Position numbers and translations under genes: made by a program. Under the pieces are notes generated by a model. It was not told the DNA's origin, made no database searches, and was given only the letters and a program-made list of their open reading frames with translations. Source: Botryllus schlosseri (lineage: Eukaryota). Taken from it: DNA of 64,000 bases. Location: NCBI GenBank assembly GCA_051294905.1, contig CM119371.1, positions 39,620,001 through 39,684,000 of the forward strand, written 5' to 3'. Positions 12,534 to 53,003 of the stretch are shown in pieces; position 1 is the first letter of the stretch, and each line of letters starts with the position of its first letter.

Positions 12534-14229
12534 ATCTAAATGAATAATCACAATTAAATGAATAATCACAATTATCTCAATGATGCACCAAACAATACAA
12601 TATTCGAATCCCATATACCCCTAATCTTGGCTAATTTGAATCACTGACAGAAACTTATTACCAGCACCAATCGACTAATCGGAACTCATGCACAATACGC
12701 CGTCATTTCCCGTACACAGGGAACACGAGTATAACAATGCGTCCCCTTGAGCAATAATGATTCCACATGAACAACCGTTTCTTTCATTATTTAAGCCGTT
12801 TCCATGTGCAGGTTTCGTTGGCAGAGTGACCATATATGGGCATAGCTTTCATGACTCAGCAAAATTACTCTGCCAAGTGGTTGCCCCGATCGGTCAGCGG
12901 TTGTCAGAGTAATTCACGGTCGGCAGAGTATCTTGCTCCGCTCTTCTTGGCTACGGTCGTCTGTTTACTATCGCAGTCACTGGGGCGTTTCTTGTGTATC
13001 GAGGATCAGCTAACTGCGGGAATAATTGAATTTGGACTTTACTATTGATAGACGTATTACTTTATTGTTACTTAACAAAACAGAATGATTTGAAAGCAGC
13101 CTGGAGTTGCCGGTGATGCATCAAGCGCAGCAGGATGCCATTTTTTTGGTGCAAGTGGACTGTGTTATCGAGTATAGGAAGGCGCGCCAGGAACGTCAAC
13201 TTCCATTATTGATATCCCATTCGTGGTAATTCTTCAGATTTTCTGTGTATGTGGTACCGGTATCGCGGTATGTAGGATGTATACTGTATAGCTTTTTACC
13301 AGTACTCATTTTTTATAATGCAGGTACGGTACTTCAAGGAACACCAAGAGAAGGAAATTGAAATCTGGAAGAATAATAAGGCTCTGAAAGTGATAAGCGA
13401 CGACCTCGACGAACAGCTCGAATTCTTGAAGGAGTGTGCGGAAAGACATTTGCAACAAATTGCCAGCATGTGGAATGTGGATGACGCAGCCCATGGACCG
13501 CCTTCTCGACTAGCTATCACCAATATTCTGACATCTATTTCCAATCAGAATATGTTCGAATAGATCAATGACTGATGCTTTGTTGAATTGATGGTTTCTT
13601 TTGAAACATGCAAACAGAGACGAATTTGTAGCCTATAAAATCATAGTCAGGATTGAAAGGATAGGCAGCAATGGTTCGGCGACCTTCGCTACATCGGCGG
13701 TATTTGGTAGGACGCATTAACAACAATCCTCGGCGGGATATCAACGTTGCTGATTTAAATACTGTCCTGATATTATCCATAGCTATACACTGTAGCACCC
13801 TACAGCAAAAGTTCCTTTTGGAAGATTTTCTCTGTATAGGCCTTGTTCACCACTCCGGGTATCTTGACAGAAACATCTCTAAAAGCTATAGAATTCCACA
13901 AACTATTTAGCTGGTACTTTATCGTCGATATCCTCCAACACGAACTTTTCACTACTAAGTACCGGTACCGATTGTCAATTTTTGTTCACCGACGTTTATC
14001 GGCCGCTGATCATGATCATGCACTGTACGAGTGTACGACTGTGCGTACACATGGAAACGCGGCCACCATTCCTTGGCTCAGCCAATGCGGGCTAAGCCAA
14101 GTGGTGGCCGCACATGGAAACGGCTTAAATGACTTTTTCCTTTGGCATTCTCTCGAATGTCCTACGAAAAAGTGCTGACTCAGCATATTTCTAGTAACGA
14201 GGTTTGAGTTTTTTCCGTCTACTCCCATT

Positions 14230-15170
14230 ATAGAGAATTTCGCACCCCGCCATAATGTGTCCTATTCTTGCTGTATAATATCGGCAGGTATTGGTCCTTT
14301 GCATAGTATCACTTCAGGGTTCTGTGATTGTAGCAGTATGAGCCCGCTGTTTCTGGCTTCTGCGGCATTCACGCGAAAAGCAACATTTCGCATTTTGGAT
14401 TTTTGCGTATTTGTCTTGCTCAGATGAATAAATTTCCAATGTATTCGTTCAATGCCCAATAATACGAGATGTTTTGAATTTGATTTGGTCGTCATGTGGT
14501 ACAATACGTCGTTGCCTCAGTACTCCTTATACGGGGGAGGTGTTCCTTTAGTGTGTCCGTGTGCGGTGGCCAGTCCCGCGTCCGAAACTATAGCCCTGTC
14601 GCACGGTTTCATGATGGTTTTAATTTCTTCAATACCCATCCGCATCGCCAGTTTTCTTTCGATTATTCGACAGGTCTCTTCCCAAGGGTGGTATCCGTCA
14701 ATTGAGTCATTGCAATGCTCGTGTCGACAGTGAAACATCAACGTTCGTTGTATTTTTTCTTCTCTGAGGATTGTCCGCGGATACGGAGGTTTTTCATGTT
14801 CCGAAATAAGGGCCCAAACGGGTGGATCGTCGTCCCCCGCGGTCATCTCCATCCAGTAGGATCGAGGAAATCCATCTGACGTAAATACTGCTAATGTGCT
14901 TAAGTGGACTACCTCCTTTATCTGGAATCCAAAGAGATGGTTGAGCCCTCTTTGAATAAGGAGACTTGGGCTCGGATTTTTCGCCGTGTCCGTCATCCTT
15001 TTAAGAATCTCGAACACCCCTGTGTTGTTAGTAATTATCGTAAAGGGTATGGCGCGCAGCATCGACTGCCATTTTTCCACCGAATCAGTAAAGGCTTTTA
15101 GTTATTTAGTGCATGGTTCATAGGCATTCGCCGCTAGAGTTAACAGATTTGGACTGTACTATCGAGTGCG
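14230..15170 (-). pseudogene. Gypsy-like RNase H C-terminus and integrase relic
   Basis: AYEPCTK*LKAFTDSVEKWQSMLRAIPFTIITNN resembles the RNase H motif ELLA...W..YL...FTI.TD. HPWEETCRIIERK...IKTIMKPCD resembles the integrase zinc-binding region. A decayed core follows. Confidence 0.65.
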
Positions 15171-15203
15171 ACTTGCGCTGTCTTGTAATCTTGCAATAAC
15201 TCT

Positions 15204-15470
15204 TCAGACACAAGTACTGGCGTCATTCATTTTCTGAGGAGCAACAAAAATAGCTAACTTCCATTCGACAAAACCTTGTTCGATGACGCCCAAATCCAGG
15301 AAGTTCTCTACCGCCTCTTTTAATGCTTTTGCCTGGCCCTCCCCCTTTAGATTATAAGGACCAGAAACAAAAGGCTTGGTTGAGGGATCCTTAAGCTCGA
15401 TGTCGCATGGATACTTCATAGTCTGTGGGGCGCCAAGGTGAGTAGTGTTATTATCGACCTTATAGACCGC
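15204..15470 (-). pseudogene. Gypsy-like reverse transcriptase N-terminus only
   Basis: CDIELKDPSTKPFVSGPYNL...LKEAVENFLDLGVIEQ...W..AIFVAPQK. The YxDD core is absent: only about 100 bp separate this from the RNase H relic. Confidence 0.75.
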
Positions 15471-17459
15471 CCCTCAGGCTATTTAGAATGTAAACACTCT
15501 CATAATATAATTTGCGTCGGACTATGCCCGGTTTATGATGTCATCACAGAGGAATTAGGCGACTGCAATGTTTTGTGAATTTCAATACCGATTTTCCATG
15601 TGTATTTAGCAATATGTATTGAATACCTATGCGATTTTGAGCGCTGCGACTTGATAATATCAATCCCTACGCTTCTGATGTATGATTTTTTGTGATAAGG
15701 GCCTTGATAACATTCAGAGTCTGCAACGATTGTTTGGATATACATTATAGCAATTCCCCACTAAACTATAGGCGGTTATATTACTCTATTGGTCAGAGAT
15801 AACTCATCCGTCCATATTTTTAAACTTGATTTTATGTCTACAAGTTACGGTCTCTGCAGGCTCCACATTTTACGACTTATTTTCATTAGACGCAGGCAAG
15901 CGATTCTCAAGTTCGGAGCTACGGAAACAAATCACTCGCATGTGCGCGTTCCGAAGTCGTAACAGCTGAGTAGCATATACGCGAATCCCAAGGCGAAAAT
16001 AATCGAACTAGAACAATAGCCGCAGGCGTGCGATTCGCAGGGCTTTATTTATACAAACACTTTCGATACCTGTACGCGAACCCCAGCGTCATAACGATAA
16101 GGTCTAATTAGCGCGTTCTGAAACCGTAAATTTAGTCAACATCATTGAGATAGCCCTGATTTAAAGATGATCATCGAGTGTGACGATAGCACTCGCCAAG
16201 GTTATACTATCTTAACCTTAAACTACTCTCTACTTCACAAAATATAAAGTTATAAAAGTAAATAATCCAGTGATCTATTTTCAATCACTATATTTTTCAT
16301 TAATCAAAACTAAGAACTGTTAGTAGGCAAACCCTAGGAAAGTATCCTCTGATAAAAGCAGGAGTAATTTGTTATCCGTGAAATAAATAGATGGTGCGCA
16401 ATATGAGCGGTGCTGCGATGACTGACAAATACTTTGAATTAACGTATAGAAGTAGCGATTTCGAACTACGTAAAAAGTTAGTCCAGCTCACGCATCTTCA
16501 TTTTCAAAAGTCAAAACACGACGTTTTTTGTAAAATGAATACTAATTTTATTAAAAATAGGAAAAAAAGAGCAAAAAATTACATTTTATCCCCGAACGCA
16601 ACAAGAAAAATCGTATGAATTTGTAAACGACTTATTCATGACATAATATTAATTCTACTTGTACACTTTTTCACATTTTATAACACTTTTAGTAGTACTT
16701 AACAGTTTCAGTTTTAAATAAAATTCAGAATATAAACTAATCGAAAAATTCGGTAACCAATTTCGCGTAGGCTATGCATACAAATGAGGAACGTTACATC
16801 AACGCGTGTTAACTAGTTGTATTATGTAGCTTGTAATTCATGCAAGTAAGTCGGACAAATTCGTCGCATGAACACGACTCTAATGGACATAAAGAAATGA
16901 AAATTTTGTAAAGTAGATATTTTCGGTATGCTAAATTCGTCTACGCGGTGCTAGTCTTCTTGACCGCATGAAATAGGATGTTTTAGCTTCAACCTCAACG
17001 CATTAGCACACCGAATTTAAATATAGGCGATAAATAATATACAGTAGCTCCAAATTTAATGAAAAAATAAAAATGCGCGAAAAATTGCATTTATCCTGGA
17101 ACGCACCAAGAAAAACCGTATGAATTTGTAAAGTAGTTAGAAAACACGCAAAAAGTCGGTATTGCTTTGTGATGGTTTTGATGTTGTTCCATACCGATTT
17201 GGAAGATAGTACACTTAATTACGTAACTAACTACTTCTATTAAACTTCTATACTGAATCTTGTAAAGTATAATGAAAAGTGAAACTAATCGAAAAATTCA
17301 CCTCGCTTCAATTTCGATGTACAAAAAAAAACCACAAACTAAGTTTGCTTTCAGAGTCGGAAATTAAATGCATAAAAAAAATTTAAGTAGGTTTTCCTCA
17401 CACGCAACAAATATACTCAAGTGTTTAATTGAATCCCAACTCGAAACTTGATACGTAGT

Positions 17460-18070
17460 TGTAGGACATTATGGCAATGCACCATGCTAAATTTCATCAC
17501 ACATCTAATTATGGAACACCTTTAAAACTAACGCAGTCGAATGCCGACTTTACGCATATCTGTTTTGCATAAACATAGCATATACCTATACATAGTCAAT
17601 TTTAATAACAGAATTAGCATGCTAAACTTACGCAGTTGTAAGACATTATGACAATGTACTATGTCAAATTTTGTTACGCATTTCATGATTGAACAACTTG
17701 AAAACTCGCGGTTGTAGGACATTATGAAAATACACCATACCAAACTTCGTCAGACATTTCCTGATGTAAAACCTTTAAAACTAACGCAGTTCGCTACAGA
17801 CTTTTGCGTAAATCTGTTTTTCGGTAGCGCAGCACGTACCTATGCATAGTCAACAGTAAAACGGAATTACCATGTTAATAATCGACTCCCCACCTTGAAA
17901 CTCGGTACACAGTTGTAAGACATTACGGCAATGTACCATGTCAAATTTTGTTACGCATTTCATGATTGAACAACTTAAAACTAACGCAGTTCTATACCGA
18001 CATCCGCGTGAATCTGTTTTGCGGGAGCGTAGCACATACTTATGCGTAGTCAACTTTAATGATGGAATTA
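17460..18070. repeat. Diverged copies of a ~200-bp tandem repeat
   Basis: Recurring GACATTATG.CAATG.ACCAT...AAATTT and TTTAAAACTAACGCAGT motifs; same family as 20530-21625. Confidence 0.8.
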
Positions 18071-19058
18071 CAGATGAAATTAAGTTTCAACACTTTTACA
18101 ACGATTCTTCTTGCTTCCTATAACATTCCACTCGAAGCCCTCGTTATTAGGCTATGATCTAAGCCTGAGCTATGTCTTGAAGCCTACGGGACTCTGTTAT
18201 TCGTAAATAGCTACTTCTACCTTAATTTAATGGATTTATCTGAGATCATTGCTTTACTTAATCCCTCCAAAATGTGCATTATACCAGTACGTCACCATCG
18301 AAGGACCTCTGGCTATAACTATCTAGCAGTATAATTGCAGCAAATACTCGGGTACTAATTTTAAAGTAGCTTAGGTATCTAAATGAGCTCTGAGTCGCTG
18401 TTATCTCGCATCTGACCATGGAGTTAACACCGCTATTACCTTTGCTCACTGATGAAAAAGATGAAAGTTATTAAAGAAAGCAGATTTGTATGAAAACTCG
18501 TTAAATAGAAGTAAAAGTAGCCTAGAAACATAACTACTTACTGAAAAATCGTTACGTAGAAGTGGGGTTAGTCTACGAACATAACCACTTACTTACTTTG
18601 AAATCTCAACTTGTACTTGTATTCGTACTTTACCTTTACACGTCGTTTTTGTATAATGGATACTAATTTTATTAAAAATAAACAAAAAGCGCGAAAAATT
18701 ACATTTTATCCCGGAACGTAGCAAGAAAAAGCGTATAAATTTTGTAAAGTAGATAGAAAACTACACTATTCCGATGCACTGAAGACTCTTACACTCTGGA
18801 TTTTGTGCAGTATATACTAATTTTACATTGCGGAGTATTCCATAAACGTTAATCCAGTGATCCTTCTTCTATTTTCAATCACGATCCGCTTATTATTCTA
18901 GGCTTCGAAGCCCACACCCAGTACGTTTTATGAGGATTAATATTTTTAGATTAAATATAGCGTATCGAGACTTCGTGAAAGTTACTTGGAAATAGTTATT
19001 TCTACCCTAATTTAATAGATTTCTCAGATATCGTAGCAACGGAACTGGGTTGAGGGGG

Positions 19059-19100
19059 GCGGTTAAGGCGTTGGACTTAAGTTTCAATGAACAAGTGTTC
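19059..19100 (+). pseudogene. tRNA-Leu(TAA) fragment (D arm to variable arm)
   Basis: GCGGTTAAGGCGTTGGACTTAAGTTTCAATGAACAAGTGTTC resembles the metazoan tRNA-Leu(UAA) core. Confidence 0.75.
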
Positions 19101-19265
19101 TAAATTACTCATGTTTTCAACATAAACTAAACGCAAAGTGCACGAATTTCCATATTGATCAAATACCACAAACTTTGCTTGCTTTCAGAGTTAGTAACTA
19201 AGCGCGTAACAGAATTTACCTAAAAAATGTCAGTACTCCGAAAATTTTGTAAAGTATAGCTTTTT

Positions 19266-19326
19266 GGCGTTGGACTTAAGTTCCAATGAACAAGTGTTCG
19301 CGTAGGTTCGAATCCCACACCCACTA
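19266..19326 (+). pseudogene. 5'-truncated tRNA-Leu(TAA)
   Basis: Anticodon stem TTGGA-CTTAAGT-TCCAA, variable arm GAACA-AG-TGTTC, B-box GGTTCGAATCC, followed by TTTT. Acceptor 5' strand and D arm are missing. Confidence 0.85.
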
Positions 19327-20529
19327 CGTTTTACGAGAATTAATATTTTTAGATTCAAATTTAGCGTATTGAGTACTTTTTCTGCCTTTTTCAGCGCATT
19401 AGAGACGTTTACACTATGGATTTCGTGAGCTTTACTTGAGTTTTATAAATTAACGTAAAAGTAGTCATTTCAGAGTAAGTAAAACGTTCGTATTGTAGGT
19501 TCATTTCTGCTTAATACTATAATTATCATGGAGTTGAAGCAGCCCAATATCAAAAACACTCGAAAGTATTTGTTGCATATAGCTAAAAACCTAATTGAGT
19601 ACTCTGAAGAAGTACAAGTAGCACAGTTTGTGGTATTTGTATGACATCGAAATTTAGCTAACCAGAACTTATACTTGAGTACTCCGAAATGTACAAGTAC
19701 TTTACCTTTACACGACGTTTCCGTAAAATGAATACTAATTTTATTAAAAAATAAAAAAGCACGAAAAATTACATTTTATCCCAAACCATCAGAATACTAA
19801 AGTATAGCTTCTCGCGTATATGTACCTAATACTAAAGTGTTTAAGATTTCAGTTTGCTTCAACTTCATGACATTTTCAGTATTAAACAGAAGTATAGACC
19901 TAGAATGCTAACTTTCTTCGTAAATAGCTACTCCTGCCCTAATTTAACGGATTTATCTGAGATCATTGCTTTACTTAATCTCTCCAAAATGTGCATTATG
20001 CAAGTACGTCACCATCGAATCCCTCTGGCTATAACTATCTGGTAGTATAATTGTGGCAAATACTCGAGTACTAATTTTAAAGTAGCTTAGGTATCTAAAT
20101 GAGCTCCGAGTCGCTGTTATCTCGCATCGAGCCATGGAGTTAACACCGGTATCACCTTCGCTCACTGATGAAAAAGATGAAATTATACTCAAGTATAGGT
20201 TTTGCTTTGGTATCACAGAATACTAAAGTAGCTTATTGCGTATATGTACCTAATACTAAAGTGTTTATCATTTCAGATCGCTTCAACTTCATGACATTTT
20301 CAGTATTACACAGAAGTATAGACCTAGAATGCTAACTTTCTTCGTAAATAGCTACTTCTAGCTTAATTTATTGGATTTTATCTTAGATCATTGCTTTACT
20401 TAATCTCTCCAAAATATGCATTATACAAGTACGTCACCATCGAATCCCTCAGGCTATAACTATCTGGCAGTATAATTGCTGCAAATACTCGAGTACTAAT
20501 TTTAAAGTAGCTTAGGTATCTAAATGATC

Positions 20530-21625
20530 TCTAGGACATTGTGATTATGCAGCATACAAAATTTCATCACACATTTCATGATGGAACACCTTTAAAACTA
20601 ACGCAGTCGAATACCGACTTTTACGCATATCTGTTTTGCGTGAACATAGCATATACCTATATACATAGTCAATTTTAATAGCAGAATTACCGTGTTAAAC
20701 ATTGAATTCCCACCTTGAAAGTTGGTACGCGGTTATAGGACATTATAACAATGCACCATACCAAATCCAATCACACATTTCATGATGGAACAACTTTAAA
20801 GCTAACGCGGCTCTACATCGACTTTTTGCGTACATCTGTTTTGCGGGAGCGTATAGCACGTACCCATACATAGCCAACTTTAATAACGGAATTACCATGC
20901 TTAACATTGAATCCCAACTCGAAACTTGATACGTAGTTGTAGTACATTATGGCAATGCACCATGCTAAATTTCATCACATATCTAATGGTGGAACACCTT
21001 TGAAACTATCGCAGTCGAATACCGACTTTTACGCATATCTGTTTTTCGTTAACATAGCATACCCATAGTCAATTTTAATAACAGAATTAGCATGCTAAAC
21101 ATTAAATTCTCACCTTGAACGTTGGTACGCAGTTGTAGGACATAATAACAATGCACCATACCAAATGTCGTCAGACATTTCATGATGTAACACCTTTAAA
21201 ACCAACGCAGTTCTATACAGACTTTTGGCTAAATCTGTTTTTCCGTAGCGTAGCACGTACCTATACATAGTCAACTTTAATAACGGAATTACCATGTTAA
21301 TAATCGACTCCCCATTTTGAAACTCGGTACGCAGTTGTAAGACATTATGACAATGCACCATGTCAAATTTTGTTACGCATTCCATGATTCAACAACTTTA
21401 AAACTAACGCAGTTCCATACCGACTTTTGCGGGAGCGTAGCACGTACCTATGCATACTCAACTTTAATAATGGAATTACCGAGCTAAACATTGAATGCGC
21501 AACTTGAAGATTGGTTCACAGGTATAGGACATTATGACAATGGAACATATCAAATTTTATCACACATTTCATGATGGAACACCTTTAAAACTAACGCAGT
21601 TCTATACCAACTTCGCGTGAATCTG
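20530..21625. repeat. ~200-bp satellite-like tandem array (about 5.5 units), possibly Helentron/HINE core repeats
   Basis: Unit starts near 20532, 20737, 20940, 21137, 21338 and 21525. Confidence 0.85.
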
Positions 21626-21630
21626 TTTGT

Positions 21631-21763
21631 GGGTATTCATTGAGTTGTATAAGCATAAAAAACATTCCCGCGCGCTCCTAAACCTAACACTTCCTACCCT
21701 ACCACCTAATACTAAGACGCGCGCGGGAATGTTTTTTATGCTTATACAACTCAATGAATACCC
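21631..21763. mobile_element. Small foldback element with telomere-like CCTAA loop
   Basis: ~45-bp inverted arms GGGTATTCATTGAGTTG...CAACTCAATGAATACCC around a CCTAAACCTAAC...CCTACC loop. Paralog at 23664-23788. Confidence 0.85.
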
Positions 21764-22033
21764 ATCGGCCTGCTTACTACATTTTAAAGATTCTCTCCAC
21801 TATCGTGTATACAAGAATATACTTGTAACATGATAAGTATATTATAATTAATCTTATCAGCGCGGCATAGTACATTCGAGTAAATTCATTTAATTAGCTT
21901 ATGTTTATGAAATTATTTGGTTTCCGAATTCTATCTAAAACTGAAACTGACGAGTATCGGTAAAAGCAGTCTTAAACCGTAGTCACTTATTACGTGGAGG
22001 GAGTCGATAGCGAAGTACTCGTGCATTTTGTAG

Positions 22034-22653
22034 TACTCAAGTATAGGTTTTATCTGCTTTCGAACTGTCCTAAACGCAGTCTCCAAACGTCTCCGCTATA
22101 GCGATGTCGAAGTCAATGAAAAATATAAAGAATATTTACCCGATGAGCGAATGTTCCTGATGATAGCTGATGAAATTTGCAAAGATACCAAAGAAAATTG
22201 GGGCAGGATTGTGACCCTTTTTGTGTTCGGTAGCATTCTTGCTCGCAAGAACGAGGATGAACATCATGGGGAGCATATAGAAGCTATCATACAGACAGTC
22301 GGAAATTACATTGCTAGCAGAAGACTGAAGTGGATAGTGCGAAATGGAGGATGGGTGGGTGATTTACATGCTTTGCTTAGGATTTATAAATTATCTTTTA
22401 GCATGAGATATATAGTGTATCCGCTCCCTCGGAGCCCATATCATCTCTCGATGATGAAACTCAGCTTTACCTTCCAATTCGGTTCCCGATACGATAACTT
22501 TCATCCGTATGATCATTAAGGCTTCTATTTTTGTTGTAGGATGGCTTTGTAGAATTCTTTGATAATACCGCTTTCGACTACAATAAAGTTTGGAAGGGAC
22601 TCGTGTTTGTCGGGATCGGACTGACATCTATTGCAATGGCATTATCAAGATAA
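22034..22653 (+). CDS. Bcl-2 family (Mcl-1-like) gene, two exons: 22034-22354 and 22540-22653; 5' end unresolved
   Basis: BH3-like KRLRYSDVEVNEKY, BH1 NWGRIVTLFVFG, and BH2 WIVRNGGW|DGFVEFF split by a 185-bp GT-AG phase-0 intron. C-terminal anchor GLVFVGIGLTSIAMALSR*; AATAAA at 22692. Confidence 0.88.
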
Positions 22654-24798
22654 CGGATGTTCGCGTGTTTTGTCTCATGTAATATTTTAAGAATAAAATT
22701 CTTCATCGTTTAATCGCATCCATTTTACTGTAGGACCTATACAGTTTCTTCTGAGAATACTCGAAGGATTGCACCCATATGGAAACCTTCTTTATACTTT
22801 TAATTTTTCTAATTTCTACAGCTACGTAAGGAAATTGTTAGGATTACCCAGAATACATTGCAGGTCAAATTTGATTCGATTACGAGCATTATAGCGACAG
22901 AGATTTACGATAGTGTAAAATGACCTACCTTACGATATCAAATTTCGTCTTCTCTCCAAGTGGAAATATCATGTTATATAATATTGTCCATACCGAACAA
23001 ATATAAATTTGCCCGTGCTGTTGCTTTGCAAGAATACTTCGCTCACATAGTAACCAATTTCTGGTGTATCCCGAATCGATATAGACAGAAGTGCGGAAAG
23101 TTACATTGACATGTCTTAACTTCTGCCATAGATGTTGCGTTTCTAACTACTTAAAAGTTGCTAGAGCTCACGCTGTTTTATCGTCGTATTGACGTTCGTT
23201 TTGAAAAGTATAGCATGCTCAATGGTTAATGTTCACATTATTCAGTTAATTAGGTTTTGCGCAAAGAAAAATAAAATTCACGCAAAAGTCGCTATTGCTC
23301 CGCGATGATTTTGATGTTGTTCCATACCGATTTAGGAGGTAGTACACTTTGTATTAACTTCTGCCATAGAAGTTGCGTTTCTGGCTACTTAAAAGTTGCT
23401 AGAGCTCACGCTGTTTTATCGTCGTATTGACGTTCGTTTTGAAAAGTATAGCATGCTCAATGGTTCATGTTCACATTATTCAGTTTAATTAGGTTTTGCG
23501 CAAAGAAAAATAAAATTCACGCAAAAGTCGCTATTGCTCCGCGATGATTTTGATGTTGTTCCATACCGATTTGGGAGGTAGTACACTTAATTTCGTAAAG
23601 TACGCATATTCGCGGCGTGTTCAATTAACTCATGTGGCTCTAAAATGTAGTAAGCAGGGTGATGGGTATTCGTTGAGTTGAATAACCATAAAAAATATTC
23701 CCGCGCCCTCCTAAACCCAACTATTCCTAACCCCTACAACCTAGGGCGCGGGAATATTTTTTATGGTTATTCAACTCAACGAATACCCATCACCCTGCTT
23801 ACTACATTTTAGAGCCACATGAGTTAATTGAACACGCCGCGAATATGCGTACTTTACGAAATTAAGTGTACTACCTCCCAAATCGGTATGGAACAACATC
23901 AAAATCATCGCGGAGCAATAGCGACTTTTGCGTGAATTTTATTTTTCTTTGCGCAAAACCTAATTAAACTGAATAATGTGAACATGAACCATTGAGCATG
24001 CTATACTTTTCAAAACGAACGTCAATACGACGATAAAACAGCGTGAGCTCTAGCAACTTTTAAGTAGCCAGAAACGCAACTTCTATGGCAGAAGTTAATA
24101 CAAAGTGTACTACCTCCCAAATCGGTATGGAACAACATCAAAATCATCGCGGAGCAATAGCGACTTTTGCGTGAATTTTATTTTTCTTTGCGCAAAACCT
24201 AATTAACTGAATAATGTGAACATTAACCATTGAGCATGCTATACTTTTCAAAACGAACGTCAATACGACGATAAAACAGCGTGAGCTCTAGCAACTTTTA
24301 AGTAGTTAGAAACGCAACATCTATGGCAGAAGTTAAGACATGTCAATGTAACTTTCCGCACTTCTGTCTATATCGATTCGGGATCCACCAGAAATTGGTT
24401 ACTATGTGAGCGAAGTATTCTTGCAAAGCAACAGCACGGGCAAATTTATATTTGTTCGGTATGGACAATATTATATAACATGATATTTCCACTTGGAGAG
24501 AAGACGAAATTTGATATCGTAAGGTAGGTCATTTTACACTATCGTAAATCTCTGTCGCTATAATGCTCGTAATCGAATCAAATTTGACCTGCAATGTATT
24601 CTGGGTAATCCTAACAATTTCCTTACGTAGCTGTAGAAATTAGAAAAATTAAAAGTATAAAGAAGGTTTCCATATGGGTGCAATCCTTCGAGTATTCTCA
24701 GAAGAAACTGTATAGGTCCTACAGTAAAATGGATGCGATTAAACGATGAAGAATTTTATTCTTAAAATATTACATGAGACAAAACACGCGAACATCCG

Positions 24799-25418
24799 TT
24801 ATCTTGATAATGCCATTGCAATAGATGTCAGTCCGATCCCGACAAACACGAGTCCCTTCCAAACTTTATTGTAGTCGAAAGCGGTATTATCAAAGAATTC
24901 TACAAAGCCATCCTACAACAAAAATAGAAGCCTTAATGATCATACGGATGAAAGTTATCGTATCGGGAACCGAATTGGAAGGTAAAGCTGAGTTTCATCA
25001 TCGAGAGATGATATGGGCTCCGAGGGAGCGGATACACTATATATCTCATGCTAAAAGATAATTTATAAATCCTAAGCAAAGCATGTAAATCACCCACCCA
25101 TCCTCCATTTCGCACTATCCACTTCAGTCTTCTGCTAGCAATGTAATTTCCGACTGTCTGTATGATAGCTTCTATATGCTCCTCATGATGTTCATCCTCG
25201 TTCTTGCGAGCAAGAATGCTACCGAACACAAAAAGGGTCACAATCCTGCCCCAATTTTCTTTGGTATCTTTGCAAATTTCATCAGCTATCATCAGGAACA
25301 TTCGCTCATCGGGTAAATATTCTTTATATTTTTCATTGACTTCGACATCGCTATAGCGGAGACGTTTGGAGACTGCGTTTAGGACAGTTCGAAAGCAGAT
25401 AAAACCTATACTTGAGTA
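24799..25418 (-). CDS. Second, mirror-image copy of the Mcl-1/Bcl-2-like gene (exons 25418-25098 and 24912-24799)
   Basis: Reverse complement of 22034-22653, with one amino-acid difference (HHEEH vs HHGEH). Confidence 0.88.
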
Positions 25419-25846
25419 CTACAAAATGCACGAGTACTTCGCTATCGACTCCCTCCACGTAATAAGTGACTACGGTTTAAGACTGCTTTTACCGATACTC
25501 GTCAGTTTCAGTTTTAGATAGAATTCGGAAACCAAATAATTTCATAAACATAAGCTAATTAAATGAATTTACTCGAATGTACTATGCCGCGCTGATAAGA
25601 TTAATTATAATATACTTATCATGTTACAAACGGTGATGATGTGGCAATGGATGATGTGGCACTATAGGCGTGGCACTTGATGATGTTGCGCAGGTGATGT
25701 GGCAATGGGCGTCATATAGGTGCAGCAATGGGCGGATGATGTGGCAAGGGGTGTCCCATAGGTGCGGCAATGGGCGGATGATGTGGCAATGTAGGCGTGG
25801 CAATTAAGGCGACGTGGCCTTCTGTAATTGGCGGGGCACAATTTGA

Positions 25847-26695
25847 TCAACCCTCACTACTAAGGTGGCCCCGTAGGTCTTCGAGTTCCGACGCAAAAGG
25901 CATGTAGACGGCTTTCCAGACATCATCAGGAATAATGGTGTTTTCTGGAGTCGTCAAGTCAGGAGGTTTGTACGGGAGTTTAGCCAGCGCTACTGCTTGT
26001 GCACACAGGTTATCGAGTTCCGTCTTTACGTTCGGATTGGTGTCTTTTTGTAGAATGTATGTGGTAACTGGGCCAGCCATGGGATGACACGACTTTCGTG
26101 ATGTTCGGGGTTTTGGTGTAGGTGGAGAGAGGGCGAGGTCCTTCGTTGTCAGCGGGGATTCCCTACCTATCCAATCTGACCTCTGAGCTCGGTGCGCGCC
26201 CGCACTTACCGTCACGCCGACGGACTCAATCTCCGCCGGGGGCCCTGATTCTGGGGAGACGTGCATCCTAAAATCCCCAGACTCCTCGTCGGTCATATCC
26301 AGACACGTGTCTGGTTGAACGACAATAGCTGCTTCGTTAATACCTTTTGGGAAAGTAGTTAAAACAGGTGCTGTCGTAATGCTACTATGGGCCGAACAGT
26401 TACATTTGTCCGGACAAGTGCATCTACGAGAGCTTTCTGGACCAACTCTCTCGCGTGGGTCCTCATTTGCGCCAGCGGGGATTCCACACTCGACGTCTTC
26501 AAGAATAGTGCCAGCAGGGATTCCTGACTCGACACTTGGAATTTCCCATAGGTTTTGTGTGACGTTAGTTGCGCTTTTCAACTCGTCGTTCGCGCCAGTG
26601 GTGATTACCATCTCGACACTTGCGCCAGCGGCGACGGCTGGCAACGATGGCCAGCGCGCCGATTCGACGCTTATCTGATTTGCAGCTTCCATCAA
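25847..26695 (-). pseudogene. Low-complexity linker ORF downstream of the protease in the Gypsy-like polyprotein
   Basis: 282-codon open frame rich in Pro/Thr/Ser/Ala, collinear with the protease relic; no recognised domain. Confidence 0.5.
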
Positions 26696-26773
26696 CCCAT
26701 CGTCGGTCGCAGTTTTGCAAAGACTGCTTCCGACTTTGGTTCCATCCCGTTGATCACACGAGATATCGTCGCA

Positions 26774-27085
26774 TCAAGTTAATAAAGACAACTCTTCATT
26801 TGCGTTAGACGGAGTTTTGAACTCAGTTGCTATGTTTGGTAATTGCTGTACTTGATCAATCCATTTCAATCCCACAATATTGAGTGGGACTCCTTTTCCG
26901 ATCGCAAATGGAACCGACAGACCGTCAAAATCAATCACTACCAAGGAATCAACGGGGGATGAGCCACCTATACCACGCAATTTCATGTCTAAGGGTTGGC
27001 GCTCATCCCAAATTCGTGGGTATTTAGTATTCGTGACATTTTTCATTATCAAATTGGGGATGCTTCCCGTATCAGCCAGGAATTT
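26774..27085 (-). pseudogene. Retropepsin (aspartic protease) relic
   Basis: TKFLADTGSIPNLI...LRGIGGS...NIVGLKWI: DTG active site, GIGG flap and ILG-like motif. Confidence 0.85.
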
Positions 27086-27601
27086 TGTACTAGTTTTTTA
27101 TCAAATAAATACAAGAGTTGGCCGCCGAACAGTTCCGTAAAATCCGGCTGCAAATGGTCATCCGGTGTATCAAGAAACGTAAATAGGGGTAGGGAATCAT
27201 TATGTACAGTTTTTGTGTGTTGGGGTAGTATATTATCTGGGAACTGATTTACCGGATCAATCAGCACCCCGAAGCGATTTTTGAGAGTCGAATACCTTGA
27301 TTCAGTTCATCATCCGTCCAATATAAAGCGTCATATCGACGTGGACGATTATGATATTGAGGTTCCGTCCAGGCCACCTGGCTATTACCCCGGGTTGGGT
27401 GTGCAGACGGTCCTTGAGGACCCCATTGATCCCTATCATGCCAGTGGGTTCTATCTTGATTTTGTGGCCTAGTATCATAATAGGTTACACACAAAGCTGT
27501 CCCTTGTGTAAATGAGGTGGGAAGATATTGGTCAAGCCCGTCCAATTGTTAGTATGTTATTTCTTGTAAAGAAAGGTTTCCAATTACGTCCTGCTGATTC
27601 T

Positions 27602-28569
27602 TTAACATTTGAGGGCACTGGACGTGCTCGCTACGTACTTTCCCCCCAGGGCAAGAACCTGATTGTTTAGCCAAAGTATTAATTTAGCCACACAACTACG
27701 GGACTGGTGTCCCGGGGCCTTACAGTAATAACACACCGAGAGTGACTGGCCTTGAGAGGGATTCAAATACAAGCCTAAAGGTGCGAAAATATTAGGGTTT
27801 CCAAGAAAATTGTACCTTTCACCTTGGCTCTCCGCAATGTTGCGGGCTTCCCGGCTGCTAGATGGAGTAATCTGTGATCCGTCCCCACCCACCACGGAGT
27901 CCTGCGTATCTGCCATTCGAGGGCTTCGGTTCGAGTTTCCCGGTCCCTGGCTAAAACGCGGAGGCCCCGTAGTTCTTGTCGATTGCACCTCAGGTCTCGT
28001 CGGTGCGGTACGCCCAGTCTGGGGTCGTACTAGTATAGGCCTCGGGCCCTGTCCTCGCCTACCAGGTCCATTCCCATTCATGACGTTGGTAGGAGGTCAT
28101 GACGTTGGTAGGTTCGAGCTATACGAGAAGGATCGCGGCGTAGTGGTGGAGCCTGGCCTGCGTTGACAAGTTGACGCGGTGAGATCTTTCTAAGCGGCCC
28201 AGGAGGTGTTGCTCTCCCAAAGGAGGCAGTGATCGAAGTGTTCGTCTTCAGACTCTCCCCCGTCCACTGAAATTGCCAGGAAATGACACACCGCACCGGA
28301 AGTCCGTCAGTTGGTGCCTCCATTTGTTTATAGTGTAGCTTCATGGCGCTTGTCATGCAAGTATAGTCTACACTTGGTTCGATTTTCTTCACAGTGCTGA
28401 AGCCCATCTCCTGGCTTTTCCACAATCTTCGACATGCACAGCCAGAACTTGACGACGTTGATTGAAGCATTGGCTGCAGCTTGATCGAACGAAGCAGTGA
28501 CCTTGAAGGTCCAGAGGCCTCAAGACTAGTCATAACATAGCCAAAGCTTAATACAACCAAATACTCCAA
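27602..28569 (-). pseudogene. Gag relic with CCHC zinc knuckle
   Basis: CYYCKAPGHQSRSC (CX2CX4HX4C) after an Arg/Pro/Gly-rich segment; frameshifted ORFs; upstream of the protease. Confidence 0.8.
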
Positions 28570-31069
28570 TAATTATCAACCAATTATGGACACAAAATAG
28601 GGTGCTTCTATAAACATCGTCCCGTACGGGTCTATCCGAATACGAATAAAAGCTAGGCCTATAAATATGTCATGCATGATTGATAACTTTTCAATACTCC
28701 AAGGTTAGTTTACACATATAAATGTGAAGGCCTTTCCTGCCTCAAAACACAAGCACATATAATATTCAAGAAACATGCCAATAGATGCCACAAAAAAGAA
28801 CACTCAGCGTTCAAGTTGACCAATTTGCAGACCATCGTATTTTATAAGAGTTTCCCAGTCTTCCAGCTGTAGCTATCGAACCGAAGTCAATCCAGAAACC
28901 GACCCCTTGTTTGAGTACTTTACATCTTATGATCATCAAGTACTTTTCGTGTCGATTCGGGAATCAGGCGCTCCAACAGAACACGGGGTTTGTTGAGGGT
29001 TCGTCGTAGGTAGAGATTCCAAATGCAATATCTCTACGCCCTTGGCTCTTCTCGTCTTCAGTTCATCGGCTTCATGGAGCTATTGCAGCATATTTCATTG
29101 GGCTTCTCCATTTCTGTATTCTTTGCAACTTCGGCTAGCAGTCGATCCTATTTTATCGCACTGCTTTAGTTCTGTATACGTTGCAACTGTGGCAAGCAGC
29201 CGATCCAATCATTATAAGGCTAAGAGCTTCCAGGGGGACATGTGAACATCACCCTTCAACGCCAAAAGACTTCAGAACATCCCGCAATAAATCGTCAATG
29301 TCCTGTTTTGTGGATATAGTCTGATAATGAATGCTTCGTTTTGGGCCGTGTTTCGAGAGTGCTAGTGGCTTTACACTGGTAGAGCCACAAATTTGCCAAA
29401 ACTAGAGGACACATTCATTCTGTCTACATAAGTAGCCATTGGATATTACAACTGGATGTACAATTCATGTGGGCACCATACATGGCATGGATATGCAATA
29501 GGCATACATACATATATCATATATACTTCAGCTCACTGCGAAAGTTCGCATACATGAAGAAATGGTGGCGCCATTTTCGGTAAAACAACCTGATGGTATA
29601 GCTAACTACTGACATACATACGACAATTCCAGATAAGCACAAAGTGCTGTCAACACAACGGCCAAATCCACAAAGCATATTCGACTGTTCATTCATTAAC
29701 CCATGCGCAAATTCGAAATACAAAATGGCGGCATTTTTGTTAACTCAGCACGATAGTGAGTATCGGCAATAGAGTTCGAACACATTCTGCAAATTTAGCG
29801 TTGACGCAATCGATCTCATGAAACGAAAGCGTGAACCCTTGGACTCAATTTTCGACACATCAATTTCGCAAAAATTGATGTGTGTACTTTTCTGTTGTAT
29901 ATAAGAATTTTTACTTTTATTTTATTGAGAGTTATTTAGGGTCATTATATCTGTTGCTTACGCAACAGCAATTCATCTTACTAAATGCTCTTTTATGTGC
30001 AGCCTATTTTTTAGGTACTAGTCTTGTTCATAATCTCACACTAAAATACCTTACCTTAACAATTTGGAGGGGCAGTGTAGGCATTCTCTGAAATATAAGA
30101 TTTGCAGTGCCTGGGTCAGAGCTTAAATCCACGACCTTTTACGGTGTTTAGCTGCAATCCATGAAGTGCGGATTTATGCATTTGAAAACGAGTGACACTG
30201 CGATTCGCCTATGGAAAGGCACGAACTAACACTGGCGTTTCTACGCTACGACGTGAAATTCATCACAATATAAGCTCAGTAATACATGGTAGCACAAAAT
30301 GGACACATTTGTGTGACACAATATTCAACGAATGGCCTCGGCGCTCGGCGAGCACTTGGACACATTACGATTATCGCAATACAGACCAACTGCTCGGCTG
30401 CATTGCCATCCAGTTTAGAATTGTATTAACCTTCACCGAAATAGTATAGCCTAGAGCGGCGACGGGGTTCAGATATAGGTTTGAATATATTTTCAGTTCG
30501 AGTCGCCATTTCGGCTTTGTCCTTGCGACAAGCTGCCTCATTTCTGAAGCTAATATTTTGGATTAGTGCGTTTCGTTTCACTGAAGCTAATTTAATTGTC
30601 CTTACAAGCACTATACATGAATGATTTTAAATAAAGGCACTACTATGGAATATCTAGGTATCAACATATCACGCGCAACTCATGCAACGCAACGCAGATA
30701 TAGCAACAGGCACGTACTCATTTATGCTCAGTGATGCCATTTATTTACTTTACGCTGCTATGAGCTATTTCTCGACCCTATTAATTGTTTTCAATTATAA
30801 CGCATTCATGCTAACATGATGAAAGCTAGTAGCTGTTGACAAAATCAGATTTTTTGTAATACTAGGGCGAGATAAAGACAGGCCAAAATGAACGCGAAAG
30901 TCTGTTATAGCGACTATTGCTTGTGTGAACGTAACACACAATATTAACACAATTCAGATATTGCGAGTTATCGTCGCGAAGAGCGCTCGCTCATTGCAAT
31001 ATATTTGTTACCGACTGGTTGACACAATCCCAGCAAACACTAGATGTCTTTTGAACCTGTCAGGATATC

Positions 31070-31750
31070 TTTTTCTTGTCCAGCCAGGTTCAAATCATAT
31101 CTTGTGCATGCTTTGTGCTGAAGCACGACTTAAATATATCTTTTTCATGTCCAGTCATGTTCAAATCATATCTTTGTGCAAACCTTGTGCTGAAGCACGA
31201 CTTAAATATATCTTGTTCTTGTCCAGTCAAGTCCAAATCGTATCTTGTTCATACCTTGTGCTGAAGCACGAATTAAATATATTTTTTTCTTGTCCAGTCA
31301 AGTCCAAATCATATCTCGTCCATACCTTGTGCTGAAGCACAACACAAATATATCTTGTTCTTGTCCTGTCAAGTCCAAATCATGTCTTGTCCATACATTG
31401 TGCTGAAGCACGACTTAAATATATCTTGTTCTTGTCCAGTCGAGTCCAAATCGTATCTTGTTCATACCTTGTGCTGAAGCACGAATTAAATATATCTTGT
31501 TCTTGTCCTGTCAAGTCCAAATCATGTCTTGTCCATACATTGTGCTGAAGCACGACTTAAATATATCTTGTTCTTGTCCAGTCGAGTCCAAATCGTATCT
31601 TGTTCATACCTTGTGCTGAAGCACGAATCAATTTTTTTTTGTCCAGTCAAGTCCAAATCATATCTTGTCCATACCTTGTGCTGAAGCACGACACAAATAT
31701 ATCTTGTTCTTGTCCAGTCAAGTCCAAATCATGTCTTGTCCATACCCTGT
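31070..31750. repeat. 71-bp subterminal tandem repeat, about 9.5 copies
   Basis: TGTGCTGAAGCACGA recurs at 31114, 31186, 31257, 31328 and onward. Confidence 0.95.
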
Positions 31751-32978
31751 GATGGCCTCCGCTGCTTTCGGTGGTTGATGGGTATTATAGAGTGTATAAT
31801 TGGAATTGGTCGGCTCCGAAATTTTGGAAGGCAATTTGAAAGTCAGCAAAATCCGGCTGGAGAATTTCCGGTTCTGCGTCCCAAAAACTTCTACCAAAAT
31901 CATGATATCGTATTTAAGATTATAATTAAGAATGTTGCTAAAATCCAACTGTCGAAATAAATTCAGAATCCGCATCCAGTCCGGCTGAAATCGCTGAAAT
32001 CCTGCTACGACTCCGGCTTCTGATCCGGAGTGTAAACGAGAGGCCGTTTCTCCCTTGCGAGTTCACATAAGTTTTGGCGCGGAATACTGGCAGACAAAGC
32101 GCTCTCGTAATGGCGGCTTACAGCTATACAGTCGTATGTTAGGTTTAGTTGCGTTCTGGAATTAATCGTGGTAAATTGAGGCTCAACCAACCATATTCCT
32201 TCAGAGGATTACTGAAAACTTAACTGTAGATGGTAATTTATATATGCTTCATACGAAACATAGGTATATGATGTATGGTATAAATGTCACAAAGTATATA
32301 TAGAACTTGGTTTGCACTTTTGCGAATATCATAAGCTATTGTGACAGTGCTGGATTATATATAATATCATCAGATGGTGGTCGTTGAAATCATTCATTGT
32401 GATCGAATGTTTTTGTACTTTTGTCTATAATAGTGTAGTGGGGGCTCATGAATTCAATAACGAGATTAATTAGGCCACAGAGTTGAACGCCTTATGAAAT
32501 CTTAATTAGGGATTGCACCGTGTGTTGATTGATCAGGGAGAAAAAACATGGCGGCGCCTGCATGACAATGTTATTTTCAAATTCACATTGTCCTCAGCAT
32601 TATCGGTGGGAAATGGATTTGAAGTGACATTGCTGTCGTTGTAATACATTCATTAAATACGATTTATTCATTGTATATGTGGATAAATGGGCGAATAATG
32701 TATCGATTCAGCAATCCGGCCTATATCCGGCCCGCCGACTGGAGAAGTTGCCCACCCCTGATCTAACCTCTCGTCAAGATCAACGTTCCATCAAGTTATT
32801 TGATGTCTATGCAGGCGCGTAGCCAGAGGGGGGGTTTCGAGGGTATAGTCGTCATTTACGCATGTACTTAACCATAATGAATTGATGCTATATTAGTGAA
32901 TTCGAAAAATATCGAAACCCTGCCATATTATTTTAAAAAACCCTACTTATTTTTTGCCATTTGTATTTTGTACTACAG

Positions 32979-35008
32979 GTATCTGCTTTGAAAGGACTTC
33001 ACGGTGAACAATTGGCCTCAACGGTCAGAAATATCATGACAAGCATAGCTGTAAAAGATGTGTGGCAATTGTTCAGCCTAAAAGGTCAAAGAAGCAAAAA
33101 TGGACAAAAAAGAAGTTTTCAAAATTTTACTCTTTACAAGACTATAAAACGTAAGTTGTTACTGATATTACAATCGCGATTTCAAAACCCATGATAACGA
33201 TGTCTTCGAGAGCATTTTTACAGAGTTAGGGTATTTTGCTTTCCCTTCTTGTGAAAGATCATCGCAGCTAAATTGCAAATCGTTGCTGACCACACACCCT
33301 TATAAGCCCTCGTTTGAAGTCATCTTCTACTGACATTGCCGACATGGCGAAATCACAAGCAAGTGCGTTGATTGCGCAACTCCATGTTGAGTCTGGAATG
33401 TTTTGAAATACCAATTTTGACACCATGGGGTGATCACATTCGAGAGAGATTGTTACCGCTGGCGGAGATTCCGATTTGCCGCATTGTTTTGTAATGCCGC
33501 CCCTGATCTACTTATATTCTCTTTGAAGGAGCATGTAAAGTGGCTCATCCTACGGCCGACAGTACAACAATTACAACTAAAGTGGGACGATTTCTAACTG
33601 TTATTGGAGCTTGCAAGGTAATTTTGTTTATGAATCTGACGTCTGTGTGACAGCTGCGTTCTTTATCCGTAAGTGAATCGTTGCTACCTCCAGGGCCACT
33701 ACCATTCATCTTCAGAACACTATACCAGTGGTTTCCAAACTTTGACGTGATGTAATTTAAAAAAAATTATAGTTATTTAATTTCTCGGATTATCCTTGAT
33801 TGGTGGATAATCCGCGATTTATCAACGAAAAACTCACATAAACCCGCTTCTACTGGTCGGAATTGACTCAAATTTGTTTTGCAACGTCTTTGAAGACAGC
33901 TCAACAATTTCATGGGGTTGGCAGGAAAATTGGGAAATTTTTTTTTTAATTTTCAATAATAAATTAAAAATTTTAATTGGATCTGCGGAGTCCTATACTT
34001 GTTAGAATCGAACCAAATTTGGTGTGCAGCGTTTTTAGGGTAACCTGACAATTAAATCAGTGAATGGCTGGAATCCGAGGAAAAAAGTTATTTTTGAACA
34101 GCCCTACTGCACACGTGAGCAATTACGCAGTGCTTAGTTGGTCTCAGCGCAGAAAAAGCGCAGAAAAAATCTGAAGTGATGTCATTTTTTTAGTCGTTAC
34201 GTACTACTGTCGAAGGGACCGCGCAGTGAGTTGGTGAGTGTGTGCAGACTCTTCAAAAATTAGAGGGAACATTGGGCCGGCTGTTTCGGTGGCGAACAAG
34301 ATGCATGGCAAATATGGCTCAATTCCAACGTGTAGAAGTCAAATCATTGAGATACAAAATTAGGGATTGGAAACTTCGCTGGTATATATATTAGGTACAT
34401 TTTACAGCTAGCTATACTATCCCATTCACCAAAGAAATGTTTGAAGCTGGCCCAGAACGATAACGATGAGTTATACGATCTTCCAGGGCCGTAACTGTCA
34501 CACTCCAAACACCCAATTAGGATAGCTCGACTGGACCCAAAATTACTTTGTTGGTCGTTTGTTGAAGTAGATGTAATCAAATTGAATATTTTTGTCGTGC
34601 TTAGCGCGATTTCTTGTCCCTGTAGGTCTACATTTAAATATGATTAGTAAGATAAAAAGGTGCTTATGTTAGAGAAATATGCAAATCGGTGGTGGCGATT
34701 ACCACACATTGAAAAGGACTACGACTCTACTCTGTGCTAAGAGATGGGCCTCAAGAACATTTTCAAACAACACACACCACCAAGGTCGTCGTGACTTCCT
34801 AAAGGCGATTCGGAATCCTTGGATGAATGTGACTTGCCATGACCGTCCCATTGTACTCGCAACCAAACACATATAATGACTTTTGCTCTACTGCTAATCA
34901 ATCGAAGTAATCAATTCATTTATGTTTTAGGATGACGATAAAGGAGAAAACAGGAGCAAGACTGTTATCGAGGAGGCTGAAGATTCCGATACCGATAACA
35001 TAGACTAA
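32979..35008 (+). pseudogene. Spliced DUF4806-like accessory gene fragment (exons 32979-33150, 33529-33617, 34931-35008)
   Basis: Phase-compatible GT-AG introns give VSALKGLHGEQLASTVRNIMTS...FSLKG...KRSF...LYKTIK|RACKVAHPTADSTTITTKVGRFL...|DDDKGE...NID*. No upstream exon found. Confidence 0.65.
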
Positions 35009-35460
35009 TGCTAATGCAGAAATATTTGCTGAAGTGATTGCACAGTTCTGTATCAAGGCCCAATTCTTGCTAACGTATTTTCTTCATCCATGTTTTTTTT
35101 GGCGTGTTTTGTTCTGATTTCATACAGAACAGAAAGCCATAAACATGATTTTTAAAATTGGCGATTAGTTTTAATTCTGAATCAAGGCCTACCTCTTGCT
35201 GCCTACTTCTTGCTAACGTATGTTGTGTCACGGACTGTTATTTTACCTTGATTCTTCATCTATTTTTATTCCAATTTTCCGTCGAGGTCTAGTCCAGTTC
35301 ATTTTTTTTTTTGAACTGGTATAATACAGAACAAAAAGCCATACATGATTTGTAAATCTGGCGATTCGTATTCGTTCATATGTGAAGTCCAGCAAATAGC
35401 AGGTTTAGCCAACCAGGGTTCAGGGTCACACAGGGTCGAGTTATACAAAAAATCTCTTCT

Positions 35461-53000: not shown

Positions 53001-53003
53001 AGA

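What the first reader, a model, noticed from the sequence alone, without database searches (positions are those of the whole stretch)
21823..25629. Large palindrome seeded exactly at a small hairpin element
Seen: the symmetry axis is the 33-bp CCTAA-rich loop of a 125-bp foldback element (23664-23788) whose unexpanded paralog sits at 21631-21763. The right arm abuts Gypsy linker sequence directly with no TSD, and both arms end in TGTAACA/TGTTACA. Established: short inverted repeats next to a break can prime foldback synthesis of long palindromes. Inference: this hairpin family generates inverted gene duplications. Three arm mismatches argue against a pure read artefact.
Basis: partly seen in the sequence, partly recalled or inferred. 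Interest (0 to 1): 0.7.

Follow-up and report, generated by a model that had tools for sequence, protein, structure and literature searches.

The report
Palindromic core of hybrid Polinton satellite
This 3.8-kb DNA palindrome, with a truncated cell-death (Bcl-2) gene in each arm, lies inside a 10.4-kb insertion with Polinton/Maverick-type ends and a 6-base target duplication; it is likely the core of a helper-dependent satellite of a virus-like transposon whose arms are probably copied from each other around an inherited hairpin, rather than a host gene duplication seeded by a small hairpin.

Summary
The palindrome is in the sequence: 1887-bp arms, 33-nt loop, 3 mismatches. The right arm abuts not Gypsy DNA but the 232-bp right end of a 10,421-bp insertion (15441-25861) with AGTAGT...ACTACT ends and a 6-bp duplication AAGGTG that splits a retrotransposon pol frame. 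These are Polinton/Maverick hallmarks; core genes are absent. Both arms carry the same 5'-truncated Bcl-2 gene, while another run holds a 99% copy continuing upstream, so one arm was probably copied from the other. The 'unexpanded paralog' looks like a second axis whose left arm was deleted (4-bp microhomology), not a MITE. The element's two ends share only 7 bp: likely a hybrid of two subfamilies. The scan already noted giant palindromic Polinton satellites, some with Bcl-2, on other DNA of this genome; my sequence look-ups did not link this copy to them. The axis and right junction were not checked in reads. New variant of a known kind; interest 0.5.

The parts
15435..15440 (.). left copy of 6-bp target-site duplication AAGGTG
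   Evidence: the only pair of 114 AGTAGT...ACTACT pairs in the window with 5 or more of 6 flank bases alike; 0.034 expected for 6 of 6
15441..25861 (.). whole insertion, 10,421 bp, Polinton/Maverick-type ends AGTAGTG...CACTACT, no core genes
15441..21629 (.). left part (35% G+C): left end, modular repeats, about 200-bp satellite arrays at 17426-18074 and 20532-21628; shares modules with the palindrome arms
21630..21764 (.). hairpin H1, 46-bp perfect stem, 41-nt loop with 1 G; read as the axis of a second subfamily whose inner left arm was deleted (TGGG microhomology 21630-21633); 6256 bp from the left end
   Evidence: (X2 loose end and X4 joint at 21633)
21765..22059 (.). module M1 right of H1; first 25 bp shared with the arm next to the main axis; runs unbroken across the palindrome's left boundary in other runs
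   Evidence: X2 record 10 (21767-22003), X4 record 17 (21767-22059)
21823..23709 (+). left arm of the palindrome, 1887 bp
22060..22653 (+). 5'-truncated Bcl-2-family gene: BH1-BH2 exon part 22060-22354, GT-AG intron 22355-22539, last exon 22540-22653 with hydrophobic tail and stop; break at 22059|22060
   Evidence: PF00452 E 1.4e-18, profile 30-100 of 100; 78% to P0152; splice sites and upstream in-frame stop
23112..23588 (.). 238-bp unit x2 (97%), mirrored at 23864-24340; 63-75% like the satellite of the left part in reverse orientation
23663..23789 (.). hairpin H2, the axis; differs from H1 at 5 of 46 stem positions, each change mirrored in both arms
23710..23742 (.). 33-nt loop without G, CCTAA-rich
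23743..25629 (-). right arm of the palindrome, with the mirror Bcl-2 copy at 24799-25392 and the same break at 25392|25393
25630..25861 (.). right end of the insertion, 232 bp, 54% G+C, short repeats with 7 TGGCA; unlike the left end beyond 7 bp
25862..25867 (.). right copy of the target-site duplication AAGGTG
25862..27097 (-). host retrotransposon pol frame, upstream part (Gypsy-like label rests on a CCHC knuckle at 27605-28096 and recalled motifs)
   Evidence: P0157 residues 7-102 and 208-289; PF00098; no Pfam or PDB hit for the pol pieces
15222..15440 (-). host retrotransposon pol frame, downstream part
   Evidence: P0157 residues 287-359, 70% identity

Best explanation
The palindrome lies inside a 10,421-bp insertion with Polinton/Maverick-type ends and a 6-bp target duplication, and is likely the inherited mirror-image core of a helper-dependent Polinton satellite whose arms are probably kept alike by copying around the central hairpin. 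Shown: the insertion, its ends, the duplication, the split host frame, the absence of core genes, one break shared by both arms, and mirrored stem changes between the two hairpins. Inferred steps: (1) the family is palindromic by descent, with an H-type hairpin at its axis; (2) a deletion removed the 5' part of the cargo Bcl-2 gene; (3) strand-displacement copying of the element, turning at the hairpin (snap-back), or repair on the folded-back strand, wrote the deleted arm onto the other arm; (4) recombination between two subfamilies, probably in the shared module M1 or after nesting, joined the left end, left part and axis remnant H1 of one to the palindromic core and right end of the other; (5) a Polinton integrase supplied in trans inserted this hybrid as one unit into a retrotransposon pol frame. 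The three arm mismatches arose afterwards.
For: Ends and duplication match the vertebrate Maverick motif 5'-(AGT)2//(ACT)2-3' with 6-bp TSD (PMC8097293, passages); 1 of 114 end pairs, 0.034 expected. An independent homolog, P0157, aligns on both sides with residues 287-288 on each. Arm modules match the left part (21 hits for 22060-23662, best 87% over 89 bp; 3 for M1 against 0.05 per shuffle) and nothing outside the element at E 1e-4. In one search the left boundary is bridged by X2 record 10 and X4 record 17, so it is native element sequence. X2 record 11 matches the Bcl-2 exon with 2 differences in 312 and continues upstream of 22060 in frame, with residues like P0152; X4 continues module M1 differently after 22059: both sides of the shared break have other native neighbours. 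The right arm carries the common base at 23067 (X1 7981 of 8032, X2 21.4 of 28.5, X4 6.0 of 6.0 depth) and at 23334 (as in the second tandem unit and 17189-17213), while the left arm carries the Gly codon shared with P0152 at 22269: each arm has its own derived change. 5 of 5 stem differences between H1 and H2 are mirrored. Bcl2 homologs are reported in adintoviruses (PMC8502044, passage).
Against: The two ends agree for only 7 bp, so the long terminal inverted repeat of Polintons (100-1500 bp, PMC10748475) is not met. No autonomous helper was seen and no genome was available. Look-ups of the arm DNA and the Bcl-2 protein in earlier findings were blank, so kinship with the satellites noted elsewhere in this genome is not shown. 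Position 21824 has other neighbours in X1 (23 contigs), X2 and X4, which a separate TGT-ended element could also explain. Mirrored stem changes also occur in ordinary MITE subfamilies (recalled).
Confidence: 0.6

Rival explanations
1. Same parts, but the hybrid formed in place: one satellite inserted here and made the duplication, a second nested inside it, and a deletion between the two elements' identical 7-bp right ends (or gene conversion of the end) left the inner element's end next to the outer element's duplication. No hybrid ever moved.
For: The ends share exactly 7 bp, a usable microhomology; the element already shows a 4-bp microhomology junction at 21630-21633; earlier notes report nesting in this family (unchecked).
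Against: It needs a deletion landing exactly on both termini among many possible microhomologies; no inner target duplication or remnant of the outer right arm is left (no match of 25630-25861 within 15441-23709).
Confidence: 0.2
2. One reading: a small mobile hairpin next to a chromosome break primed foldback synthesis and duplicated neighbouring host DNA at this site.
For: The axis is a perfect hairpin with a paralog; foldback priming at inverted repeats is established in yeast (PMC10622511, abstract and introduction); the shared break shows recent arm-to-arm copying.
Against: No target duplication at H1, H1 plus tail, or H2; homology continues past the hairpin; the duplicated DNA is element DNA; the right arm leads into the element's own end and duplication, not into a healed chromosome break; depth over H1 is not above the arm in X2 or X4 (depth is not a copy number).
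Confidence: 0.08
3. 21824-25628 is itself a foldback DNA transposon with TGTAACA ends (Ginger-like ends, recalled) that captured the Bcl-2 arm and sits inside the Polinton-ended element.
For: Both arms end on TGTAACA; 23 X1 contigs have other letters before 21824, and X2 and X4 show another continuation after 21824.
Against: No target duplication of 3-10 bp; the left junction is shared with copies that lack the Bcl-2 fusion (X4 record 17); M1 is built of modules found elsewhere in the element.
Confidence: 0.07
4. Assembly or read artefact: a foldback chimera created the second arm.
For: Foldback artefacts occur in about 0.55-0.6% of ONT genomic reads (PMC12870357, passages); the axis and right junction were not read-checked.
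Against: Each arm has its own derived base, and the right arm holds the population base at 23067; the mirror stops and passes into a proper element end whose duplication completes the split frame; the same paper found virtually none in PacBio HiFi.
Confidence: 0.05

Closest known systems
Polinton/Maverick elements (PMC8097293, PMC10748475; passages read)
   Same: (AGT)2//(ACT)2 ends, perfect 6-bp target duplication
   Different: 10.4 kb, no polymerase, integrase or capsid genes, ends alike for only 7 bp, internal 3.8-kb palindrome
Giant palindromic Polinton satellites noted by this scan in the same genome (e1-7804823, e1-7803354, e1-7803439; unchecked notes)
   Same: Polinton-type ends, mirror architecture, a Bcl-2-type gene in each arm; left end to H1 is 6256 bp, like the 6.2-6.3-kb arms in e1-7883813
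   Different: this copy is only partly palindromic, has two axes and two unlike ends, and its Bcl-2 gene is truncated; sequence kinship not shown (blank)
AAV snapback genomes (PMC8235507, abstract and section 3.1 read)
   Same: self-complementary, helper-dependent sub-genomes of a linear DNA virus that keep the terminal origin
   Different: single-stranded parvovirus products made anew in each infection; here an integrated, inherited element with a conserved axis hairpin and a host-type intron-bearing cargo gene
Foldback inversions at double-strand breaks (PMC10622511, abstract and introduction read)
   Same: inverted duplication centred on a short inverted repeat, with a hairpin-capped intermediate
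   Different: confined to a mobile element and bounded by that element's end, not a chromosome-arm duplication resolved through a dicentric
Adintovirus Bcl2 homologs (PMC8502044, one passage; supplementary figures S1-S2 not seen)
   Same: anti-apoptotic-type cargo on Polinton-related elements
   Different: here an intron-containing, 5'-truncated copy whose best named relative is a Styela clava protein (49-50%)

Membership tests
Polinton/Maverick (autonomous) | (AGT)2//(ACT)2 or (AG)3//(CT)3 end motifs | tested here: met
   15441 AGTAGT, 25861 ACTACT; motif from PMC8097293
Polinton/Maverick (autonomous) | 6-bp (5-8) target-site duplication | tested here: met
   AAGGTG on both sides; homolog aligns across it
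Polinton/Maverick (autonomous) | terminal inverted repeats of 100-1500 bp | tested here: not met
   ends alike for 7 bp; best further local alignment 11 of 12 bases; no BLAST match
Polinton/Maverick (autonomous) | pPolB, integrase, protease, ATPase and capsid genes | tested here: not met
   only 3 stop-free frames of 100 aa or more: the two Bcl-2 frames and a 101-aa frame; 0 of 13 short frames given to Pfam hit (13 picked from the 38)
Non-autonomous Polinton derivative (satellite) | ends shared with an autonomous Polinton of the same genome | not testable with these tools
   no genome held; both end motifs absent from viral contigs
Non-autonomous Polinton derivative (satellite) | several related copies in the genome | tested here: inconclusive
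   X2 and X4 hold arm variants at about 99%, 94-96% and 85-87%, but contig depth is not a copy number; look-ups in earlier findings blank
MITE (for the 125-bp hairpin) | own target-site duplication at defined ends | tested here: not met
   none of 3-10 bp within 3 bases of the ends of H1, H1 plus tail, or H2
MITE (for the 125-bp hairpin) | high copy number with unrelated flanks | tested here: inconclusive
   H1 and H2 share their right flank; depth over H1 not above the arm in X2 and X4; no genome-wide count
Break-induced foldback inversion | pre-existing short inverted repeat at the axis | tested here: met
Break-induced foldback inversion | duplicates host chromosome DNA next to a break | tested here: not met
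   arms lie within, and share modules only with, the insertion
Bcl-2 family gene | BH1 and BH2 motifs, C-terminal hydrophobic tail | tested here: met
   PF00452 67.7 bits against cut-off 31.4; last exon 51% to P0001
Bcl-2 family gene | complete N-terminal part (BH3 region, start) | tested here: not met
   profile positions 1-29 missing; in-frame stop 10 codons upstream

The most novel reading that the evidence does not exclude
Polinton satellites replicate as half-length linear molecules, protein-primed at one end and covalently closed by a conserved hairpin with a G-free, telomere-like loop at the other. The chromosomal palindrome is the opened-out dimer, so any lesion in one arm is written onto both. 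The helper integrase reads only the last few bases, so hybrids with unlike ends are mobile and shuffle cargo such as Bcl-2 between subfamilies.
Probability: 0.3. Interest if true: 0.75.

Novelty: new variant of a known kind. Interest (0 to 1): 0.5.

Why it matters
Polinton replication and integration are inferred largely from gene content. A natural element with a perfect target duplication but unlike ends would define how little of the end the integrase needs. A break copied onto both arms around a conserved hairpin would be a direct trace of a snap-back intermediate. Both points can be tested with long reads and a genome-wide count. It also warns that large gene-bearing palindromes in this genome are more likely mobile-element cargo than host gene duplications.

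Tried and rejected
No whole genome is held, so no genome-wide count of hairpins or ends was possible. Hairpin and end motifs: 0 matches in metagenome contigs and viral contigs. Bcl-2 piece: no homolog; no locus in viral contigs; 1 weak, unrelated-looking locus L001 in metagenomes (23 residues, not pursued). Frame 14520-15101: no homolog. Pfam and PDB gave nothing for the host pol pieces or P0157; the Atlas gave no answer for P0157. Rfam: 0 matches in 15400-25900. RNA run X22 laid 0 reads: no test of expression; no listed holder was on record as RNA. Earlier findings: nothing near, nothing by arm DNA or protein, one irrelevant bacterial hit. Rejected: M1 as the LTR of the neighbouring retrotransposon (no match in 25630-36000); H as a MITE. 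Paper searches (listings only; 65 swamped by Toll-like receptor papers) showed no description of palindromic Polinton satellites. The library lacks most subscription journals and Repbase, and non-autonomous Polinton derivatives are recalled from Repbase and nematode work that I could not check.

Full report
Observation. The palindrome is present as described: arms 21823-23709 and 23743-25629 (1887 nt), a 33-nt loop and three mismatches. The axis hairpin (H2, 23663-23789) has a paralog (H1, 21630-21764); they align over 162 columns at 82%. Of 46 stem positions, 5 differ between H1 and H2 and all 5 changes are present in both arms of each hairpin; one more position at the loop edge is unpaired in H1. 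The loops are C- and A-rich (0 G in 33; 1 G in 41) and both begin CCTAAACC. Their other strand resembles degenerate telomere repeats; that likeness is recalled and untested.

Cargo. Each arm holds a Bcl-2-family gene piece pointing at the axis: PF00452, 67.7 bits, profile positions 30-100 of 100, a GT-AG intron at 22355-22539 after the GGW motif, and a last exon ending in a hydrophobic tail and stop. The best relatives are P0152 (78%, unnamed) and a Styela clava bcl-2-like protein (49-50%), so the host is probably an ascidian (inference). Homology starts at 22061; an in-frame stop lies 10 codons upstream. The gene is 5'-truncated in both arms at the same base.

The real unit. Prompted by earlier notes on this genome, I looked for Polinton ends. 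AGTAGT at 15441 and ACTACT at 25861 are flanked by the same six bases, AAGGTG. This is the only one of 114 such pairs in the window with 5 or more of 6 flank bases alike; 0.034 perfect matches are expected by chance. An independent protein, P0157, aligns to the minus strand at 27097-26810 (residues 7-102), 26104-25859 (208-289) and 15440-15222 (287-359), with residues 287-288 on both sides. So a retrotransposon pol frame is interrupted by a 10,421-bp insertion with a 6-bp duplication. The Gypsy-like label rests on a CCHC knuckle upstream and on recalled motifs; Pfam and PDB gave no hit for the pol pieces. The end motif and duplication are those given for vertebrate Mavericks (PMC8097293, passages). 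The element has no core genes and its two ends agree for only 7 bp, so it is not an autonomous Polinton and fails the long-TIR feature (PMC10748475, passages).

The arms are element DNA. They share modules with the element's left part: 21 alignments for 22060-23662 (best 87% over 89 bp; the 238-bp unit is 63-75% like the satellite in reverse orientation) and 3 for module M1, against 0.05 per shuffle of M1. The element has no match outside itself in the window at E 1e-4.

Reads. I laid 4 of the 24 listed runs on 21440-23349. X1, X2 and X4 (three studies; X1 may be the source) cover 30 of 30 bins; the RNA run X22 laid nothing, which is no test. The output showed 24 of 11,935 pieces, 18 of 301 loose ends and 40 of 128 variant rows, so missing rows prove nothing. 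(a) X2 record 10 (21767-22003) and X4 record 17 (21767-22059) run across 21822|21823: the palindrome's left edge is native sequence, not a fresh break. (b) X2 record 11 matches 22060-22371 with 2 differences and continues upstream in frame with residues like those of P0152; X4 continues M1 differently after 22059. Both sides of 22059|22060 thus have other native neighbours, and no shown piece bridges it. A junction of this kind in both arms implies copying from arm to arm after it formed (inference). (c) The satellite continues normally after 21633 in X2 and X4, and H1 begins at 21630: a 4-bp microhomology junction. H1's apparent 125-135-bp size is therefore probably what a deletion left of a longer arm; its homology to H2 runs about 25 bp further on the right, and it has no target duplication. 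(d) At 23067 the right arm's base is the common one (X1 7981 of 8032 depth, X2 21.4 of 28.5, X4 6.0 of 6.0). At 23334 the right arm agrees with the two other copies of that module. At 22269 the left arm keeps the Gly of P0152. Each arm has a derived change, which a read chimera would not give. (e) Against a simple picture: 23 X1 contigs have other letters before 21824, and X2 and X4 show another continuation after it, so TGTAACA marks a variable join.

Mechanism. Most likely (0.6) the palindrome is the inherited core of a helper-dependent Polinton satellite. A deletion cut the cargo gene; copying that turns at the hairpin wrote it onto both arms, as in snapback genomes of AAV (PMC8235507, abstract and section 3.1; an analogy, not membership). 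Recombination then joined the left end and axis remnant of one subfamily to the core and right end of another, and an integrase in trans inserted the hybrid. All of these steps are inferred. The main rival (0.2) is that the hybrid formed in place by a deletion between two 7-bp ends. A separate TGT-ended foldback element (0.07) and an artefact (0.05; PMC12870357, passages) remain possible.

Known and new. Earlier scan notes describe many 11-16-kb palindromic Polinton satellites on other DNA of this genome, three with Bcl-2. These are unchecked notes, and my look-ups by arm DNA and by protein were blank, so kinship rests on shared architecture only. Bcl2 homologs occur in adintoviruses (PMC8502044, one passage; its supplementary figures were not seen). 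Passages of PMC11414722, PMC6431247 and PMC5499653 and the listings of searches showed no description of palindromic Polinton satellites; Repbase and most subscription journals are outside the library. What this copy adds is a perfect duplication around unlike ends, a second axis remnant with mirrored changes, and a break shared by both arms. Verdict: new variant of a known kind, interest 0.5.

Noticed in passing
window 1832-4006: Foldback element with about 610-bp arms, CATAG ends and a 7-bp direct repeat GTGTAAC on both sides; resembles Galileo/P-type foldbacks (recalled).
   Followed up: partly
window 56167-56664: Foldback of 233-bp arms, 95% complementary, 32-nt loop, ends TTAAAGGGG; Kolobok-like ends (recalled).
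   Followed up: no
window 52147-53603: Foldback with about 610-bp arms at 91% overlapping the end of a reverse-transcriptase frame (50812-52521, PF00078), next to inverted 21/45/66-bp minisatellite arrays.
   Followed up: no
window 6754-12539: Four tandem 1162-bp units at 99% and two 585-bp units, beside a hAT-like frame at 4761-6470.
   Followed up: no
window 25630-25861: Seven TGGCA in 232 bp against 0.23 expected from the window's average; like NFI half-sites of adenovirus origins (recalled).
   Followed up: partly
window 21811-21824 and 23028-23048: Similar short module AAGAATA(TA)CTT at both places; X1 and X2 hold a form that skips the 1223 bp between, Bcl-2 piece included.
   Followed up: partly
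window 14517-15222: The host pol frame stops soon after the reverse-transcriptase start and passes to a further frame without Pfam hit: the host element is broken in other places too.
   Followed up: no
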